Source: Candidatus Bathyarchaeota archaeon
GTDB lineage: Archaea > Thermoproteota > Bathyarchaeia > Bathyarchaeales > Bathycorpusculaceae
DNA length: 64,000 bases
Assembly: GCA_963702095.1 (NCBI GenBank)
Contig: OY969706.1
Coordinates: 800,001 to 864,000, forward strand
Direction: 5' to 3'
Numbering within the stretch: position 1 is the first letter of the stretch; the number at the start of each line of letters is the position of its first letter. Under the pieces are notes generated by a model. It worked only from the letters and a program-made list of their open reading frames with translations. It made no database searches and was not told the DNA's origin. Position numbers and translations under genes: made by a program. Below are positions 13,778 to 25,994 of this stretch, piece by piece.

Positions 13778-15038
13778 TTGAAAATTGAAGTTTTGGGAGG
13801 AGCCAGAGAAGTCGGCGGCTCATGCATCTCCGTCGTAACAGACTCAGCTAAAATAGCGCTGGATTATGGCGCAAAAATCGACGATGTTATACCTAAAAAG
13901 TTGCCGAAGGATTTCGACGCCGTATTTATCAGTCACGCCCACCTGGACCACACTGGTAGCCTTCTGAGCTTATGCAAAAACAACAGCCCAACTATAGTTG
14001 GCTCAGAAATAACCCGTGATGTAACTGTTGACCTTCTCCACGACATGGTCAGTATTCAACAGGAAAAAGGCAACCTAGAATTCGACGACAGTCACGCAGA
14101 AAAAGTGAATAACTGTTGGTGGAGCCGGGACTCCGTTGCGTTGCCCGGTGTCAAGGTTATGCTTCAATCTGCCGGTCACGTTGCAGGCGCAAAAATGACC
14201 AGTTTCGAAGCAGAAAAGAAACGGGTCATTTACACAGGAGATTTCTGTCTTCACGACTCGGAGATACTTCATGGCGCTAAACTCGAAACGCTTCCTAAAA
14301 GCCCCGATCTGCTGATTATGGAATCGACTTATGGCGGAAAAGTTACGCCAGCCCCGTCATGAATTAGTTGACACGTTTATGCAGCAGATGCAGACGGTTA
14401 TGGATCGCAGAGGCAACATTTTGATTCCCACCTTCGCGTTCCACCGCAGCCAAGAAATGGCAAAGCGGATTGACACAGCCATAGAACGTGGAATATTGCC
14501 CCGCTACAACGTTTACACGATCTCTAACCTTGCCCACCGCATAAACAGTTACTTCAACCAAAACAAGCAGCTATTCACCAAAGAAATAAAGCAGCAGAAA
14601 CAGCCCTTCAACTACCGCCATGTCAAGCACCTGTACAGGACTAACCAGATTAAGGAACCAGCCATCGTTGTATGCACGTCAGGGTTTGGCCATGCAGGCG
14701 CAAGCCTACGTTTACTATCTGATTGGTCACAGGACAAAGACAACTGCGTCATCTTAACATCTGGGTATCTGCCTCCTGACAGCCCGCTTAAGCAGGCTAA
14801 GGAAGAGGGTTTCTTCAAAACTGAAGAGGAAGTGGTGACTATGCGTTCGGAGATATGCCAGATTGAACTTTCAGGCCACGCAGACCAAGTGGAGCTTGTA
14901 AAGTTCATCAGCAAGTTGAAGCCCAAACAGACCCTTCTTGTCCACGGCGACCTAGAACAGGCAGAGTTGCTGTCTGAACAAGTTTCAAGTTTGACCGATG
15001 TGGTTATTCCCAAGCAGAACGAGGTCTTCGACGTCTAA
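13778..15038 (+). CDS. Beta-CASP metallo-beta-lactamase ribonuclease without KH domains; split by a +1 frameshift near 14340
   Basis: GGAREVGGS, HAHLDH, AGH, YTGD, ESTYG, then RSQE, SGHAD, VHG; removing one A from GGAAAAG joins the two ORFs. Confidence 0.88.
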
Positions 15039-16348
15039 CTCTGCTGGGTTGACCTAAACCTCAACAACGCCGCTAAGCCTCCCAAAGCGTTAAGTGACTT
15101 TTTCTCTTCTGAAGACGAAGAAATCACTTCAACACTCGCATTGCTCTGCACAGCCAAATCCTCCAACACATCCACTATGTCTTTTTCCCGCAACTCGTAT
15201 GAGGTTGCCCCGCATTTCTGGCAGGGAATCGCTATCATTTCTTGTGCAGCTTGAGTTTTATTTGCGGACAACTCCTTTTTGGGTGTCCCACATTTCTTGC
15301 ATACTGCATCGATTTCAGCTATGTCGGTGTTGTCGGCGACTATTGCCACTTGCACTTCAGCCTTGTTTAGGGCGTTTATCACTTGGTCCAATCCGTAGGT
15401 GGCTAAGCCGTCTGGTTTGCGTAGTTCCGAGAACAGGCGCTGCATGATTTTTTGCTCTTCGGGTCCACACATGTTCTTGAGGAGTTCTTCGGATTTGCAG
15501 ATGACTTCTTTGATGCCTGCTTTATCGACGGATTGGGTGTCCACAGTGTCCAGCAGCATGTTGGAGAGTTCATAGTGCAAAAAGTCGCCTTTCAAGAAAT
15601 CGTTTTTTGTTTGCCCCGGTCCGCCCGCCAATAAGACGTTGACTTGTTTTTTCAGGAAGTTCTTGACTGCGTGTTCTGCGACGCGGTGGAAGAACGCTGT
15701 CAACTCCATGTCGCGTTCTCTTTCGTATCGTCTCTGGCTCTGCCCGCCTTTCCTGGTTTTGCCCGGAACACCCGAGGAGATATTATCCACTACTTCGAGG
15801 TGTTCACCGGTGAGTATGCCGAAACTGGCGTCTTTCGCGTCTAGGGTGAGGATTCCAACGATTTTTGGGTCTCTTAGCATTTCCCGTAGAGGCTCTAAAT
15901 GGAAGTAGTCGTCAACATTGAATTGGTAGGTTGTCAGTGGTTCTGGGGGAATTATGGTTTCAACGGTTAAGGCTTCTTTCTCTCCCCCTGATACGTGTGT
16001 TCCAGCGAAAACCGCCAGCCCATTCTCAGAAGTCTCTTTCAGCTGCCTCAGATGTTGCATAGTGCCTTTAAGAGTGGCTTGAAACCTGTCGTTTAGCCGC
16101 TCCGACCCTAAGTTAATTGATTCCAATTCCTTCTTTAGAAAAGCAACCGACTGGTCCAGAGAGGCTACAAAAGGAACATAGAATGAGACGAATTCTCGCC
16201 CTTTCCCCTGCAAGTCGGATAGGCGTGCGATTTGTTTTCTGAGTTTATGCTGTTTCACTGAGTTAGTTGATGCCAACTGGCAAGAGTAGAAATGGGTGTT
16301 TCTGTTGACGGACAAATCTGAAACCTTAACTATACTATGGCACCGCAA
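15035..16348 (-). CDS. Divergent aRF1/eRF1-family peptide release factor paralog (likely start TTG at 16276). The ORF track labels it +, but the protein reads on the minus strand
   Basis: GKTRKGGQSQRRYER, GPG..K, ENGLAVFAG, CKKC..CQKC minidomain, LGGLAALLRF. Confidence 0.9.
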   Translation of the reverse strand: MRCHSIVKVSDLSVNRNTHFYSCQLASTNSVKQHKLRKQIARLSDLQGKGREFVSFYVPFVASLDQSVAFLKKELESINLGSERLNDRFQATLKGTMQHLRQLKETSENGLAVFAGTHVSGGEKEALTVETIIPPEPLTTYQFNVDDYFHLEPLREMLRDPKIVGILTLDAKDASFGILTGEHLEVVDNISSGVPGKTRKGGQSQRRYERERDMELTAFFHRVAEHAVKNFLKKQVNVLLAGGPGQTKNDFLKGDFLHYELSNMLLDTVDTQSVDKAGIKEVICKSEELLKNMCGPEEQKIMQRLFSELRKPDGLATYGLDQVINALNKAEVQVAIVADNTDIAEIDAVCKKCGTPKKELSANKTQAAQEMIAIPCQKCGATSYELREKDIVDVLEDLAVQSNASVEVISSSSEEKKSLNALGGLAALLRFRSTQQS

Positions 16349-21924: not shown

Positions 21925-23016
21925 GTGAAACCCATGTCAGAAGACACCGACACCCAACCAGAAGAAAATATCGAAATTGAAAACACTGAACCTGTAGAAG
22001 AAAAAAGCGAACTGATGCAACGAATGGAAGAAAACAAGAAAAAATACGAGTTCATAGAAGACCTCCCGGGAGTCGGCCCCGCAACCGCCGCAAAACTCCG
22101 TGAACTAGGCTACCACACCGTCGAATCCTTAGCGATGGCTACAAGCCGCGAACTTGAACCAGTCGGTGTCAGCGAAAAAAAAGCCTTCCAAATCATCGAA
22201 GCCGCCCGATCATCCATCGGCATAGCCTTTATCCGCGCCGACGAACTCTTCAAAATGCGCAAAACCGTCGCCCGCATAACCACAGGCAGCAAAGCACTCG
22301 ACAAAATCCTCGACGGCGGATTAGAAACCCAAACCATAACCGAATTCTACGGCGAATACGGCAGCGGCAAAAGCCAAATGTGCCATCAACTCTGCATCAA
22401 CGTCCAGTTGCCCCGAGAGAGAGGCGGATTAAACGGCGGCGTCCTCTACGTGGACACAGAAAACACGTTCCGCTTAGAACGTATTGTGCAGATGGCAAAA
22501 TTCGCCGGGTTAGATCCAGAGCAAGCCGTCAAAAACATCATTTACGCCGAAGCCTACACAAGCGACCACCAAATGTTTCTGCTTGAGAACGCCGATGAAA
22601 TCATCAAAGCCAACAACATCAAACTCATCATCGTTGACTCCCTCACGGCGCACTTCCGCAGCGAATACATTGGCAGAGAAATGCTTGCGTCACGCCAGCA
22701 GAAACTTAACAAGCACATGCACAAACTCGTCGCCCTCGCACGTGCATTCAACGCTGTGGCAGTGGTCACCAACCAAGTTATGGCGAAGCCGGACCAGTTC
22801 TTCGGCGACGCAATCCACCCCATTGGCGGCAACATAGTGGGACACACAAGCCACACTCGCCTGTACCTACGCCGGGCCTCGCATGGTCCAATCCGCATCG
22901 CAAGGCTGGTTTCAAGTCCATATTTGCCTGAGGGAGAGGAAATCCTTAAAGTCACCGAGAACGGAATAGAAGATGTCTCCGAAGAGGAGAAAGCAACTAA
23001 ACCCCGTGGACGCTAA
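21925..23016 (+). CDS. radA: DNA repair and recombination protein RadA
   Basis: LPGVGP HhH, GEYGSGKSQ, DTENTFR, HFRSEY.GR..LA.RQQ, TNQV. Confidence 0.98.
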   Translation: MKPMSEDTDTQPEENIEIENTEPVEEKSELMQRMEENKKKYEFIEDLPGVGPATAAKLRELGYHTVESLAMATSRELEPVGVSEKKAFQIIEAARSSIGIAFIRADELFKMRKTVARITTGSKALDKILDGGLETQTITEFYGEYGSGKSQMCHQLCINVQLPRERGGLNGGVLYVDTENTFRLERIVQMAKFAGLDPEQAVKNIIYAEAYTSDHQMFLLENADEIIKANNIKLIIVDSLTAHFRSEYIGREMLASRQQKLNKHMHKLVALARAFNAVAVVTNQVMAKPDQFFGDAIHPIGGNIVGHTSHTRLYLRRASHGPIRIARLVSSPYLPEGEEILKVTENGIEDVSEEEKATKPRGR

Positions 23017-23939: not shown

Positions 23940-25994
23940 ATGCCAAAAAAAGACTTCACTAGCTTCGACCTCGCCGCCGCAATCAAAGAACTCCAGCCTA
24001 CAGTGGCTGATAGCCGAGTGAACAACATCTACCAATTCGGCGAAAAAACCCTCATATTCAAACTCCACAGAACCGACATGCCGCCCATACGCCTTGTTGT
24101 TGAAGCAGGCAGAAGACTCCACTTAACCAGTTACGCCGAGGAAAGCCCCGCTGAACCACCACCGTTCTGCATGACCCTGCGCAAGTACCTCCGCGACTCA
24201 TGGCTAAGAACAGTCGTCCAATATGAGTTTGAACGCATAGTCACCCTAACCTTCGAAACCAAAACAGGCTTGCTCCACTTGGTTGTGGAGTTGTTCGGCG
24301 ACGGCAACATGATATTAACTAACGAAAAAGGCACTATCATCCAAGCTATGTACTTCAAGCACATGCGTGACCGAGACATCCAACGCAACCAACCCCTGGT
24401 TTATCCGCCGGCAAGCGGCAGAAACCCCTTCAAAGTAACCGAGCAAGAACTCGAAGAAGGATTGCGCAAGGCGGATGATGCGGAGGTTGTGCGTGTGTTG
24501 GCGCGGTTTCTGGGTTTAGGCGGCGTTTACGCTGAAGAATTGCTGCTTCGGGCAACCGTTGAGAAAATAAAAAAATGTAACGCCCTAACGACTGAGGATG
24601 TTTCAGCGCTCTTTGGTGCCTTGCAAGGATTGCTTTTAGCTGTAGCTGAGACAAAGTTTGAGCCAAGCATCATCCTCGACAACGAAGATGGTTTCGTTGA
24701 TGCGGTGCCCTTCAAACTTAGGCGCTATGAAGGCTGCAAAACCCAGCCGTACCCGACCTTCAACGCCGCACTTGACGAGTTCTATCTGCGGGTAACTGCG
24801 GTGGAGAGGGCAGCGGGCACCGTAGAAGTTGACAAGTTAAAACAGGAAGCAGCGCGGCTCAAACGCATGGTCGCCGACCAAGAGAAATCGATCGCTGAAG
24901 AAGAAAAGAAAACGGCGCGGGACAAGCAAATCGGCGACACCATCTACGCCCATTTCAATGAACTCCAAACTTTTCTGGAGCAACTTCTCAAAGCCAACAC
25001 TCAGGGCTACGATTGGAAGGCGATTGTGGCGCAGGTTATGGCTGCTAAAAAAGCAGGCAAATCCCCCATGTGTTATGTGGAGTCGTTTGATAGTAAAAAC
25101 CTCGCTTTGAACCTAGGTGTGGACGGCTACAATTTCAGTTTGACTCTGCGCAAATCCCTCTTCGACAACGCTAACGAGTACTATGAGAGGGGGAAGCGGG
25201 CGAAAGAGAAATCCCAAGGGGCTTTGGTGGCTTTGGAGGATTCAAAGACGAAACTGGCGCGTGCAGAACGCGAACTCCGCGGGGCGGAAGAGCTCAAAAG
25301 CCTCAAGCCCGCCCAAATCATGGAAGCCCTCTCTAAACGCAAAGAAGAAATGGCCAACCGCGAGTGGTATGAGAAATATCGTTGGTTCACCACCTCCGAC
25401 GGTTTCTTGGTGGTGGCGGGCAAGGACACGGTAAGCAACGAAGTGCTCATCAAAAAAAACACTGCCCAAGAGGACATGGTATTCCACGCTGAAATTACGG
25501 GGTCGCCCTTCGTTGTGATAAAAGCTGAAGGCAGACCCATAAGCGAACAAGCCCTCAAAGAGGCGGCTGAGTACGCGGCGTCTTTTTCGCGTGCTTGGCG
25601 GGAGAACGCGGGTTCAGCGGACGTTTACTGGGTTAAGGTTGACCAACTTAGCAAGAGCGGCCCCAGCGGTGAATCCGTCCCGCACGGCGCCTTTTTTGTG
25701 GTGGGCAAACGTAACTGGTACCAGAATACGCCTTTGCGGGTTGCAATTGGCGTATGTGTGGGGGAGGAAACAGGGTTTGTCGGCGGCCCAATCGACGCAG
25801 TGAAAGCAAAAACCAAAACTTATGTTGTCCTTCAGCCAGGCGACTATCAGGGCAAAGAGTTGCTGCAGATGATTATGCGTACATTAACCGCGAAACTATC
25901 TAAGGAGCAGAGGGAGAAAGCAGGCAAAACCAGCATTGAACAGGTGCGGGAGTACGTGCCCTACACCAAAGGTGCCATAAGCCCCAAAACCTAG
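23940..25994 (+). CDS. rqcH: Ribosome quality control factor Rqc2/RqcH (NFACT family)
   Basis: F.M.LRK.L, ERI, ELFGDGN, NA..YY, WYEKYRWF, GKD..SNE, FHAE..GSP, GAF.V.GKRN. Confidence 0.93.
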   Translation: MPKKDFTSFDLAAAIKELQPTVADSRVNNIYQFGEKTLIFKLHRTDMPPIRLVVEAGRRLHLTSYAEESPAEPPPFCMTLRKYLRDSWLRTVVQYEFERIVTLTFETKTGLLHLVVELFGDGNMILTNEKGTIIQAMYFKHMRDRDIQRNQPLVYPPASGRNPFKVTEQELEEGLRKADDAEVVRVLARFLGLGGVYAEELLLRATVEKIKKCNALTTEDVSALFGALQGLLLAVAETKFEPSIILDNEDGFVDAVPFKLRRYEGCKTQPYPTFNAALDEFYLRVTAVERAAGTVEVDKLKQEAARLKRMVADQEKSIAEEEKKTARDKQIGDTIYAHFNELQTFLEQLLKANTQGYDWKAIVAQVMAAKKAGKSPMCYVESFDSKNLALNLGVDGYNFSLTLRKSLFDNANEYYERGKRAKEKSQGALVALEDSKTKLARAERELRGAEELKSLKPAQIMEALSKRKEEMANREWYEKYRWFTTSDGFLVVAGKDTVSNEVLIKKNTAQEDMVFHAEITGSPFVVIKAEGRPISEQALKEAAEYAASFSRAWRENAGSADVYWVKVDQLSKSGPSGESVPHGAFFVVGKRNWYQNTPLRVAIGVCVGEETGFVGGPIDAVKAKTKTYVVLQPGDYQGKELLQMIMRTLTAKLSKEQREKAGKTSIEQVREYVPYTKGAISPKT

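What the first reader, a model, noticed from the sequence alone, without database searches (positions are those of the whole stretch)
15035..16348. aRF1 paralog with intact GGQ but no stop-codon recognition motifs
Seen: the M domain (GKTRKGGQSQRRYER), C domain and Zn minidomain are intact. The N-domain positions equivalent to GTS/GTE, (TAS)NIKS and YxCxxxF read GRE, ESINLGS and FNVDDYF. Established: these three motifs decode stop codons in aRF1/eRF1, GGQ hydrolyses peptidyl-tRNA, and Pelota lacks GGQ. Inference: a codon-independent or re-specified release factor, possibly an archaeal ribosome-rescue hydrolase (functionally like ArfB or Vms1) acting with Rqc2, which is encoded 8 kb away.
Basis: partly seen in the sequence, partly recalled or inferred. 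Interest (0 to 1): 0.75.

Follow-up and report, generated by a model that had tools for sequence, protein, structure and literature searches.

The report
Stop-codon-blind accessory aRF1 copy in Bathyarchaeia
This soil archaeon carries, beside its normal translation-termination factor, an intact extra copy that can no longer read stop codons but keeps the loop that reaches the ribosome's catalytic centre, and the supposedly essential glutamine of that loop is freely replaced in related species.

Summary
Window 15035-16348(-) holds an intact aRF1 homolog (TIGR03676 354.5 bits). Its likely CDS is 15035-16315, 426 aa, from a conserved TTG. GKGRE, NLGS and FNVDDYF replace the GTS, NIKS and YxCxxxF motifs, while the GGQ loop and Zn ribbon are kept. 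The genome also has a canonical aRF1 (512.9 bits; TASNIKS, YRCDSRF, GGQ) and Pelota.

- The gene belongs to a fast-evolving clade under purifying selection (NG86 dN/dS 0.15-0.37). It was found in 23 of 201 genomes of one Bathyarchaeia family and in no other family sampled.
- All 55 species-level orthologs lack the decoding motifs, and those loops vary among them.
- The Gln of GGQ is not conserved: 25 of 55 orthologs have S, W, E, A or M, with at least 8 changes on the tree. The flanking K-G-G-x-S-Q-R-R-Y-E-R never changes.
- A Tyr needed for aEF1A binding in A. pernix aRF1 is Ser in 24 of 25 paralogs.
- The Rqc2 linkage is not conserved (0 of 5 genomes), and no neighbour is conserved.

My best reading is a codon-blind A-site factor that engages the peptidyl-transferase centre. 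Whether it hydrolyses peptidyl-tRNA is open. It is a new variant of a known kind.

The parts
15035..16315 (-). Most likely CDS of the aRF1 paralog (426 aa plus stop), starting at a conserved TTG. The maximal ORF runs to 16348.
   Evidence: TTG stands at the same place in 38 of 46 orthologs whose upstream 57 nt could be read.
16323..16325 (-). Shine-Dalgarno-like GGT, 7 nt upstream of the TTG start (GGTG in many orthologs).
   Evidence: Upstream alignment of 62 sequences; window sequence.
16259..16315 (-). 19-residue N-terminal extension (LSVNRNTHFYSCQLASTNS). It is conserved in the main paralog clade (consensus MVxEKxTHF[HY]xCQ[MLI]ATTNS; Cys invariant) and absent from canonical aRF1. It is predicted disordered.
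   Evidence: C12 invariant, F9 at least 90%; pLDDT 36-37.
15869..16258 (-). N domain. It keeps the eRF1 N-domain fold but lacks the decoding motifs.
   Evidence: Foldseek against the eRF1 N-domain 2llx: TM 0.79, rmsd 2.0 A. This is the least conserved domain of the paralog (52% identity vs 84% for canonical aRF1).
16193..16207 (-). GKGRE, at the position of the GTS loop (GSHTE in the genome's own canonical aRF1).
16103..16114 (-). NLGS, at the position of NIKS. The loop is variable among orthologs and only the following Ser-Glu is conserved.
15902..15922 (-). FNVDDYF, at the position of YxCxxxF. The Cys is replaced by V/I/A/L across the clade.
15464..15868 (-). M domain (Pfam eRF1_2).
   Evidence: This is the most conserved domain of the paralog (27 of 135 sites never change).
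15719..15763 (-). GKTRKGGQSQRRYER, the PTC loop and the start of the Arg-rich helix. GGQ itself is at 15740-15748. The flanking residues are invariant in the clade and the Gln is variable.
15530..15532 (-). Ser at the position of A. pernix aRF1 Tyr257, an aEF1A contact needed for binding.
   Evidence: Passages of PMC3467058. The column is Tyr in 37 of 45 canonical-type rows and Ser in 24 of 25 paralog rows.
15038..15463 (-). C domain (Pfam eRF1_3) with the inserted Zn ribbon. The four Cys lie at 15212-15301.
   Evidence: (C339, C342, C365, C368 invariant).

Best explanation
This is a functional, accessory second copy of the archaeal class-I release factor that has given up reading codons.

Shown:
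- The gene is intact and under purifying selection.
- It keeps the three-domain aRF1 fold and the Zn ribbon.
- Across the whole clade, the Gly-Gly loop and the following SQRRYER helix never change. In aRF1/eRF1 these elements reach the peptidyl-transferase centre.
- All three stop-codon-reading motifs are gone, and the loops that carried them differ from species to species.
- The genome has its own ordinary aRF1 and Pelota.

Inferred:
- The protein enters the ribosomal A site whatever the codon and places its GG loop in the peptidyl-transferase centre.
- There it most likely releases, or at least engages, peptidyl-tRNA on ribosomes that the normal factors do not resolve (stalled or idle ribosomes).
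- It does so as an optional, low-expression helper (conserved TTG start), not as part of the core machinery.
- Whatever it does does not need the glutamine side chain. If it hydrolyses, catalysis must rest on the GG backbone geometry.
- It is not tied to Rqc2, and its contact with aEF1A is altered.
For: - Family assignment: TIGR03676 354.5 bits, above the cut-off. The best solved relatives are aRF1/eRF1 (4af1 E 1.1e-54; Foldseek 4af1 E 2e-31, eRF1 N-domain TM 0.79).
- Canonical aRF1 and Pelota are present. They are the only other aeRF1-type M domains found in the genome.
- Decoding motifs: absent in 0 of 120 top protein hits and in 55 of 55 genomic orthologs, and variable among them.
- PTC loop: K-G-G-x-S-Q-R-R-Y-E-R has 0 parsimony steps on a tree of 53 paralogs, where the median M-domain site has 6.
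- Selection: NG86 dN/dS is 0.15-0.37 over the whole gene in 19 close pairs, and mostly below 1 in each domain. None of the 55 orthologs read shows an internal stop.
- In non-hydrolytic relatives (Dom34, most baeRF-1 families, Balon) the GGQ loop is lost as a whole (passages of PMC6514570, and PMC10901736). Its strict retention here therefore argues for a PTC-directed role.
- In bacterial RFs the backbone amide of the Gln, not its side chain, is held to catalyse hydrolysis (passage of PMC6742477).
Against: - The Gln is replaced in 25 of 55 orthologous loci (16 S, 4 W, 3 E, 1 A, 1 M) and in 33 of 120 protein hits. This takes at least 8 changes on the tree, including one return to Q. True release factors keep this Gln universally (recalled).
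- The Tyr matching A. pernix Y257, necessary for aEF1A binding (PMC3467058), is Ser in 24 of 25 paralogs. The Phe matching F289 is Leu in 25 of 25.
- No conserved neighbour gives functional context.
- The gene is sporadic (23 of 201 family genomes), so it is dispensable.
- The one tested precedent, the second aRF1 of Methanosarcina barkeri, was reported as not the active one in vitro (PMC12626013 passage; details recalled).
- There is no expression evidence.
Confidence: 0.4

Rival explanations
1. It is a non-hydrolytic A-site and PTC occupant. It would act either as a ribosome hibernation or protection factor, as Balon does in bacteria, or as a Pelota-like splitting cofactor. It would hold or clear ribosomes without cutting peptidyl-tRNA.
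For: - The Gln is dispensable.
- NIKS is lost, as in Balon (PMC10901736 passages).
- The aEF1A-contact residues are altered, and Balon too does not use the EF-Tu-GTP interface.
- The gene has an accessory distribution in MAGs whose record titles suggest soil and peat sampling projects.
- Foldseek also hits Balon chains (8v9j, E 1.8e-15).
Against: - Balon and Pelota have lost the GGQ loop altogether, whereas here GG and its flanks are invariant.
- The NCBIfam Rv2629-family score is 30.7 against a cut-off of 320, and the pelota score is 69.7 against 177.65.
- The N domain has the eRF1 fold, not Pelota's.
Confidence: 0.3
2. It is a competitor or regulator of termination. As an aRF1 look-alike it would titrate a partner (aEF1A, ABCE1 or the GGQ methyltransferase) or block the A site at stop codons to modulate read-through.
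For: - The aRF1 scaffold and C domain are fully retained.
- The conserved weak TTG start suggests low, controlled expression.
- Clade-specific fixed changes sit at the GTPase interface.
Against: - No suppressor or Pyl tRNA was found in the genome (41 tRNAs, none with a CUA, UUA or UCA anticodon).
- No recoding context was seen.
- The strict conservation of the PTC loop is not explained by partner titration.
Confidence: 0.1
3. It is a re-specified decoder: a release factor that now recognises another codon or only a subset of the stop codons.
For: The N-domain fold is retained, and some N-domain residues are conserved within the clade.
Against: - The loops at the NIKS, GTS and YxCxxxF positions differ widely between orthologs. 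A fixed new specificity would conserve them.
- The canonical aRF1 carries all three motifs.
- No suppressor tRNA was found.
Confidence: 0.05
4. It is a duplicate on its way to loss, with no function of its own.
For: - It evolves faster than the canonical copy in every domain (N/M/C identity 52/65/58% vs 84/82/72% across the same 5 genomes).
- Its distribution is sporadic.
Against: - Reading frames are intact in all 55 orthologs read.
- NG86 dN/dS is 0.15-0.37.
- 27 of 135 M-domain sites are invariant.
- The start codon, the SD and a clade-specific N-terminal extension are conserved.
Confidence: 0.05

Closest known systems
Canonical aRF1/eRF1 (e.g. H. salinarum aRF1 4af1, A. pernix aRF1 3agk/3vmf, human eRF1)
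   Same: Three-domain architecture and fold, the GG loop with the SQRRYER helix, and the Zn-ribbon insertion in the C domain. The HMM score is above the aRF1 equivalog cut-off.
   Different: - No NIKS, YxCxxxF or GTS motif.
- The Gln is not conserved among orthologs.
- Tyr to Ser at an aEF1A contact.
- An extra conserved N-terminal tail.
- Accessory, sporadic distribution and a much faster rate.
Second aRF1 copies of other archaea, notably Methanosarcina aRF1-2
   Same: It is an extra aRF1 gene beside a functional one. PMC12626013 (passages read) reports two copies in 4.3% of sampled archaeal genomes (n = 81). It also reports that only one of the two M. barkeri copies was shown to read all three stops.
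   Different: - I had no Methanosarcina aRF1-2 sequence in hand, so relatedness and motif state were not compared.
- The present clade is confined to one Bathyarchaeia family in the genomes searched.
- That paper's Table S9 (supplement, closed) may list such genomes.
Balon / Rv2629 family (bacterial aeRF1-like hibernation factor)
   Same: An aeRF1-type three-domain protein that lacks NIKS and binds, by inference here, independently of the codon. The GTPase interface is altered.
   Different: - Balon has no GGQ loop; it has an HP motif and a lasso loop.
- The family score here is far below the cut-off (30.7 vs 320).
- The paralog is a recent offshoot of archaeal aRF1 at about 40% identity, not a Balon relative.
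Pelota/Dom34
   Same: A codon-independent A-site factor of the same superfamily, used for stalled ribosomes.
   Different: - Pelota has an Sm-like N domain and no GG(Q) loop (PMC6514570).
- This protein has the eRF1-type N fold and an invariant GG loop.
- The genome has its own Pelota.
Vms1/ANKZF1 and the archaeal aVLRF-1 family; bacterial ArfB (by function only)
   Same: The same idea of a release-factor-derived, stop-codon-independent peptidyl-tRNA hydrolase.
   Different: - aVLRF-1 lacks the C-terminal domain and has an N-terminal coiled coil (PMC6514570 passage). This protein has the C domain and no such extension.
- ArfB belongs to the unrelated bacterial RF fold.
- No linkage to NFACT/Rqc2 is conserved.

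Membership tests
aRF1/eRF1 class-I release factor | Three-domain aeRF1 architecture, scoring above the curated family cut-off | tested here: met
   TIGR03676 354.5 vs 234.7 bits. Fold match to 4af1 and eRF1 structures.
aRF1/eRF1 class-I release factor | NIKS loop (stop-codon U1 recognition) | tested here: not met
   NLGS here. NIKS is found in 0 of 120 homologs and in none of 55 loci.
aRF1/eRF1 class-I release factor | YxCxxxF motif | tested here: not met
   FNVDDYF here. The Cys is replaced throughout the clade.
aRF1/eRF1 class-I release factor | GTS loop | tested here: not met
   GKGRE here, and variable in orthologs.
aRF1/eRF1 class-I release factor | Universally conserved GGQ | tested here: inconclusive
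   GGQ is present in this gene. The Gln is replaced in 25 of 55 orthologous loci, while GG and the flanks are invariant.
aRF1/eRF1 class-I release factor | aEF1A/eRF3 contact Tyr (A. pernix Y257) | tested here: not met
   Ser in 24 of 25 paralog rows; Tyr in 37 of 45 canonical-type rows.
aRF1/eRF1 class-I release factor | Stop-codon-dependent peptide release | not testable with these tools
   Needs a reconstituted termination assay.
Pelota/Dom34 | Family HMM score above cut-off; Sm-like N domain; no GGQ loop | tested here: not met
   TIGR00111 69.7 vs 177.65 bits. The N domain matches the eRF1 N-domain. The GG loop is present.
Balon / Rv2629 hibernation factor | Family HMM score above cut-off; absence of both NIKS and GGQ | tested here: not met
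   NF052289 30.7 vs 320 bits. NIKS is absent but the GG(Q) loop is retained.
Balon / Rv2629 hibernation factor | HP motif, lasso loop, binding to hibernating ribosomes | not tested
   Features taken from PMC10901736 passages. I did not map them.
aVLRF-1 / Vms1-like release factors | Loss of the C-terminal (Pelota-type) domain and an N-terminal coiled coil | tested here: not met
   The eRF1_3 domain is present. The model shows no coiled-coil extension. The acVLRF1 NCBIfam score is 38 vs 125.
Methanosarcina-type aRF1-2 | Orthology to the M. barkeri / M. acetivorans second copy | not tested

The most novel reading that the evidence does not exclude
A lineage of archaeal release-factor derivatives that work at the peptidyl-transferase centre without reading a codon and without the 'universal' catalytic glutamine. 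There are two versions. In one, it is a Gln-independent rescue hydrolase. That would show in nature that the GG backbone suffices, with Q, S, E, A, M and W swapped within closely related species. In the other, it is an archaeal counterpart of Balon that arose independently and recently from aRF1 itself, caught at an intermediate stage with the GG loop still in place.
Probability: 0.25. Interest if true: 0.75.

Novelty: new variant of a known kind. Interest (0 to 1): 0.5.

Why it matters
Extra aRF1 genes in archaea are known, but none has an assigned function. This clade offers a natural experiment. It has dozens of intact orthologs in which the decoding loops are free to vary and the GG loop is frozen. 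The catalytic Gln has been exchanged at least 8 times, including among species whose copies differ at only about 0.1-0.2 synonymous changes per synonymous site.

Testing a GGQ member beside natural GGS, GGE and GGW members would answer three questions directly:
- Does an aeRF1-type factor need the Gln side chain?
- Do archaea have a codon-independent release or ribosome-parking factor besides Pelota?
- How does a termination factor get repurposed?

It also warns annotators. All these genes pass as 'peptide chain release factor aRF-1'.

Tried and rejected
- Rqc2 partnership: rejected. NFACT lies on another contig or 177 kb away in 5 of 5 other paralog-bearing genomes.
- Operon context: none found. 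Clustering the ORFs of 57 loci gave no real neighbour family in more than 7 loci. The adjacent beta-CASP RNase is next door in only 4 of 56 loci. A Pfam scan of 101 upstream neighbour ORFs gave at most 7 hits to any family, generic methyltransferases. I did not scan the 103 downstream ORFs.
- Altered genetic code or Pyl: ARAGORN found 41 tRNAs and no suppressor anticodon.
- Viral origin: only 3 distant hits (31-34% identity) in viral contigs.
- Origin of the paralog: unresolved. In a quick LG+G4 tree it is sister to NIKS-bearing P0124/P0131 rather than to the family's own canonical aRF1. An AU test does not reject paralogs plus own canonical copies as one clade (p 0.235). P0124 has no close match in 121 genomes of the order (best 49% identity).
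- Complex prediction with the genome's aEF1A: no verdict.
- Sequencing runs: no RNA holder listed, and only small DNA shares. I laid no reads.
- Protein Atlas: only generic aRF1 and baeRF10 clusters.
- Earlier scan notes by place and by sequence: nothing.
- Literature: searches listed no paper describing a Bathyarchaeia aRF1 paralog. One search was swamped by Arf1 GTPase papers. PMC6514570 has no occurrence of 'Bathyarchae', and 10.1101/2024.11.12.623245 has no mention of release factors.
Full report
OBSERVATION

- It is an aRF1 by score (TIGR03676 354.5 bits, cut-off 234.7).
- It matches Pfam eRF1_2 and eRF1_3, but no eRF1_1 match is listed at E <= 0.01.
- Its best solved relative is H. salinarum aRF1 (4af1, E 1.1e-54).
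- The printed alignment places GKGRE opposite GSGTQ, NLGS opposite NIKS and FNVDDYF opposite YHCDSAF. GKTRKGGQSQRRYER aligns to the GGQ loop.
- The four Cys of the Zn ribbon are invariant among orthologs.
- I checked all coordinates by translation.

THE GENE MODEL

The codon at 16258 (GTG here) is GTA, GTT or GCA in many orthologs, so it is not the start. A TTG 57 nt upstream (window 16315) stands at that place in 38 of 46 orthologs whose upstream 57 nt could be read. It is preceded by a GGT(G) motif.

This adds a 19-residue N-terminal tail (consensus MVxEKxTHF[HY]xCQ[MLI]ATTNS; the Cys is invariant in alignment A3).
- Canonical aRF1s lack the tail, and so does the deepest GGW branch of the paralog clade.
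- AlphaFold2 leaves it disordered (pLDDT 36-37).

The rest of the model has mean pLDDT 74.6-74.8.
- It matches aRF1/eRF1 structures as a whole (4af1 E 2e-31).
- Its N domain matches the eRF1 N-domain (2llx, TM 0.79, rmsd 2.0 A).
- So the decoding domain is kept as a fold; it has not been exchanged for a Pelota-type domain.

THE GENOME

The window lies in a single 2.94-Mb contig. Related loci are almost all from Bathyarchaeia MAGs.

The genome encodes three aeRF1-type proteins and no more that these models find:
- a canonical aRF1 at C1:274127-275353 (512.9 bits) with TASNIKS, YRCDSRF and GGQ;
- the paralog;
- Pelota.

It has one full aEF1A. ARAGORN finds 41 tRNAs and none with a suppressor anticodon. 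There is no sign of a changed code.

THE FAMILY

The paralog is a member of a large clade.
- The 120 best hits in the 5.8-billion-protein collection (57-98% identity) all lack NIKS.
- 56 loci were recovered from species-representative genomes. A full paralog-type gene could be read in 55 of them, and all 55 have degenerate sequences at the three motif positions.
- These sequences are not conserved among orthologs. The NIKS position, for example, reads MKSE, SESE, RESE, VENE and so on. This argues against a new fixed codon specificity.

Distribution is narrow and patchy.
- In a sample of 201 genomes of the class, paralog-level matches (at least 52% identity) occur in 7, all of one family.
- In 201 genomes of that family they occur in 23: 16 of 99 high-quality genomes, and 10 of 70 genera.
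- Some MAGs carry two copies (L027/L029 and L032/L035).

SELECTION AND RATE

- Across five genomes that hold both copies, mean pairwise identity per domain (N/M/C) is 52/65/58% for the paralog against 84/82/72% for the canonical gene. The paralog is faster everywhere. Its N domain has gone from the best conserved to the least conserved domain.
- Nei-Gojobori dN/dS in 19 close, non-identical pairs is 0.15-0.37 overall. It is mostly below 1 in each domain, but single-domain values are noisy where dS is near zero.
- Reading frames are intact. The 'stops inside' in five rows and in the G187 row occur where the match runs to query residue 404-405, and for G187 (L063) the frame was read open to the C-terminus; I take them to be the natural stop of a shorter C-terminus, but did not check the other four loci.
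- So this is a functional gene under moderate purifying selection, not a pseudogene.
- The paralog tree groups genomes differently from the canonical tree: G000 with G193, and G038 with G169. Together with the lack of synteny, this suggests transfer or differential loss within the family. I did not test this formally.

THE GLUTAMINE

This is the main new point.
- Among the 55 orthologous loci, however, the residue is Q in 30, S in 16, W in 4, E in 3, A in 1 and M in 1. 33 of the 120 protein hits lack the string GGQ.
- On a tree of 53 full-length paralogs built without that column, the site needs at least 8 changes. These include a GGQ group nested inside GGS sequences, whose neighbouring residues change with it (KSG to KTV). 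That looks like recombination.
- Q, E, A, M and S forms occur among sequences only 0.1-0.2 synonymous changes per synonymous site apart.
- The site behaves like an average M-domain site: 8 steps against a median of 6, and 47% of M-domain sites have as many or more. The flanking K, G, G, S, Q, R, R, Y, E, R positions have 0 steps.
- So the loop geometry is under strict constraint and the Gln side chain is under none.

WHAT THIS MEANS FOR MECHANISM

Relatives of the superfamily that do not hydrolyse (Dom34/Pelota, most bacterial baeRF-1 families, Balon) have lost the GGQ loop as a whole (passages of PMC6514570 and PMC10901736). An invariant GG loop plus an Arg-rich helix therefore points to a function at the peptidyl-transferase centre.

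For bacterial RFs the Gln backbone amide is held to be the catalytic group (passage of PMC6742477). I recall, without having re-read them, mutational studies in which the side chain could be changed with partial retention of activity in vitro. Hydrolysis without Gln is thus conceivable. Equally, a factor that only occupies the centre would not need the Gln.

I therefore commit to a codon-blind A-site factor that engages the peptidyl-transferase centre. Release of peptidyl-tRNA on stalled ribosomes is the most likely output (0.4). A non-hydrolytic parking or splitting role is the main rival (0.3).

THE GTPASE INTERFACE

PMC3467058 (passages) names the A. pernix aRF1 residues that contact aEF1A, and states that Tyr257 is necessary for binding.
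- I mapped them through the printed 3agk alignment and then tallied the columns.
- That column is Tyr in 37 of 45 canonical-type rows and Ser in 24 of 25 paralog rows.
- The F289 column is Phe in 39 of 45 canonical-type rows and Leu in 25 of 25 paralog rows.
- G228 and D254 are kept in both groups.

Delivery by aEF1A-GTP in the canonical manner is therefore doubtful.

CONTEXT

- NFACT/Rqc2 is real (23940-25994; PF05833 E 4.6e-69). In five other genomes with the paralog it lies on another contig (4 genomes) or 177 kb away (1 genome).
- No neighbour family is shared by more than 7 of 57 loci.
- The convergent beta-CASP RNase next door is a neighbour only in the four closest relatives.
- Neighbours are ordinary chromosomal genes: tRNA-intron endonuclease, tRNA synthetases, methyltransferases.
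- No close relative is found in viral contigs.

WHAT IS KNOWN

PMC12626013 (passages) reports that 4.3% of sampled archaeal genomes (n = 81) encode two aRF1 copies. It also reports that copy number rises with genome size, and that in M. barkeri one of two copies was shown to read all three stops. Here too, the holders listed tend to be the larger genomes (median about 2.1 Mb against about 1.6 Mb for the 20 non-holders listed of 178). That paper's supplement, which may list Bathyarchaeia, was closed.

I found no paper on this clade.

Other aRF1 lineages with GGW, GGF or GGE, and a separate NIKS-less clade that keeps GGQ, appear among the representatives. Repurposing of aRF1 copies therefore seems recurrent.

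VERDICT

- It is a new variant of a known kind.
- Interest is moderate (0.5).

Noticed in passing
window 13778-15038 (+): The convergent neighbour is a beta-CASP/RMMBL metallo-beta-lactamase ribonuclease, split into two overlapping ORFs (13778-14362 and 14331-15038). One extra base near 14353, in a GCCCC run, is absent from the one-frame genes of L005 and L006. It is either a real frameshift or an assembly indel.
   Followed up: partly
L001 1470-1500 (G000:C1, about 274096-274126): The genome's canonical aRF1 has no in-frame start before its conserved N-terminus. A TTG followed by an A8 run lies in the neighbouring frame. With one A fewer it would read MSTAKK..., as the canonical genes of 4 relatives do (L-S-T/A-A/S/P-K-K). 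This is probably a homopolymer error of the single-contig assembly. A programmed shift on the A run was not excluded.
   Followed up: partly
window 23940-25994 (+) and 21925-23016 (+): An NFACT/Rqc2 homolog (NFACT_N plus NFACT-R_1) and RadA. Both are ordinary, and neither is linked to the paralog in other genomes.
   Followed up: yes
proteins P0123, P0126, P0129 and about 30 others: Many aRF1 homologs of 500-1450 aa match the query in two or three pieces that break at query residue 173/174, inside GGQ. These look like inteins inserted at the catalytic motif, as earlier scan notes describe.
   Followed up: no
proteins P0137, P0144, P0172, P0176, P0178, P0250-P0255: Other archaeal aRF1 lineages carry GGW, GGF or GGE with NIKS kept. 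A separate long-stemmed clade (P0250, P0251, P0253, P0255) lacks NIKS and YxCxxxF but keeps GGQ. Their organisms are not named in the sources.
   Followed up: no
G000:C1:1235811-1235888 (outside the window): ARAGORN calls a tRNA of undetermined identity with a four-base anticodon written (ttcg).
   Followed up: no
L082 (G000:C1:1817825-1818295, outside the window): A 323-aa open frame matches only positions 229-383 of the EF-1alpha model (domains II-III) and has no G domain.
   Followed up: no
window 16313-16315 and orthologous loci: The paralog family uses a conserved TTG start codon (38 of 46 orthologs read). This may keep expression low.
   Followed up: partly
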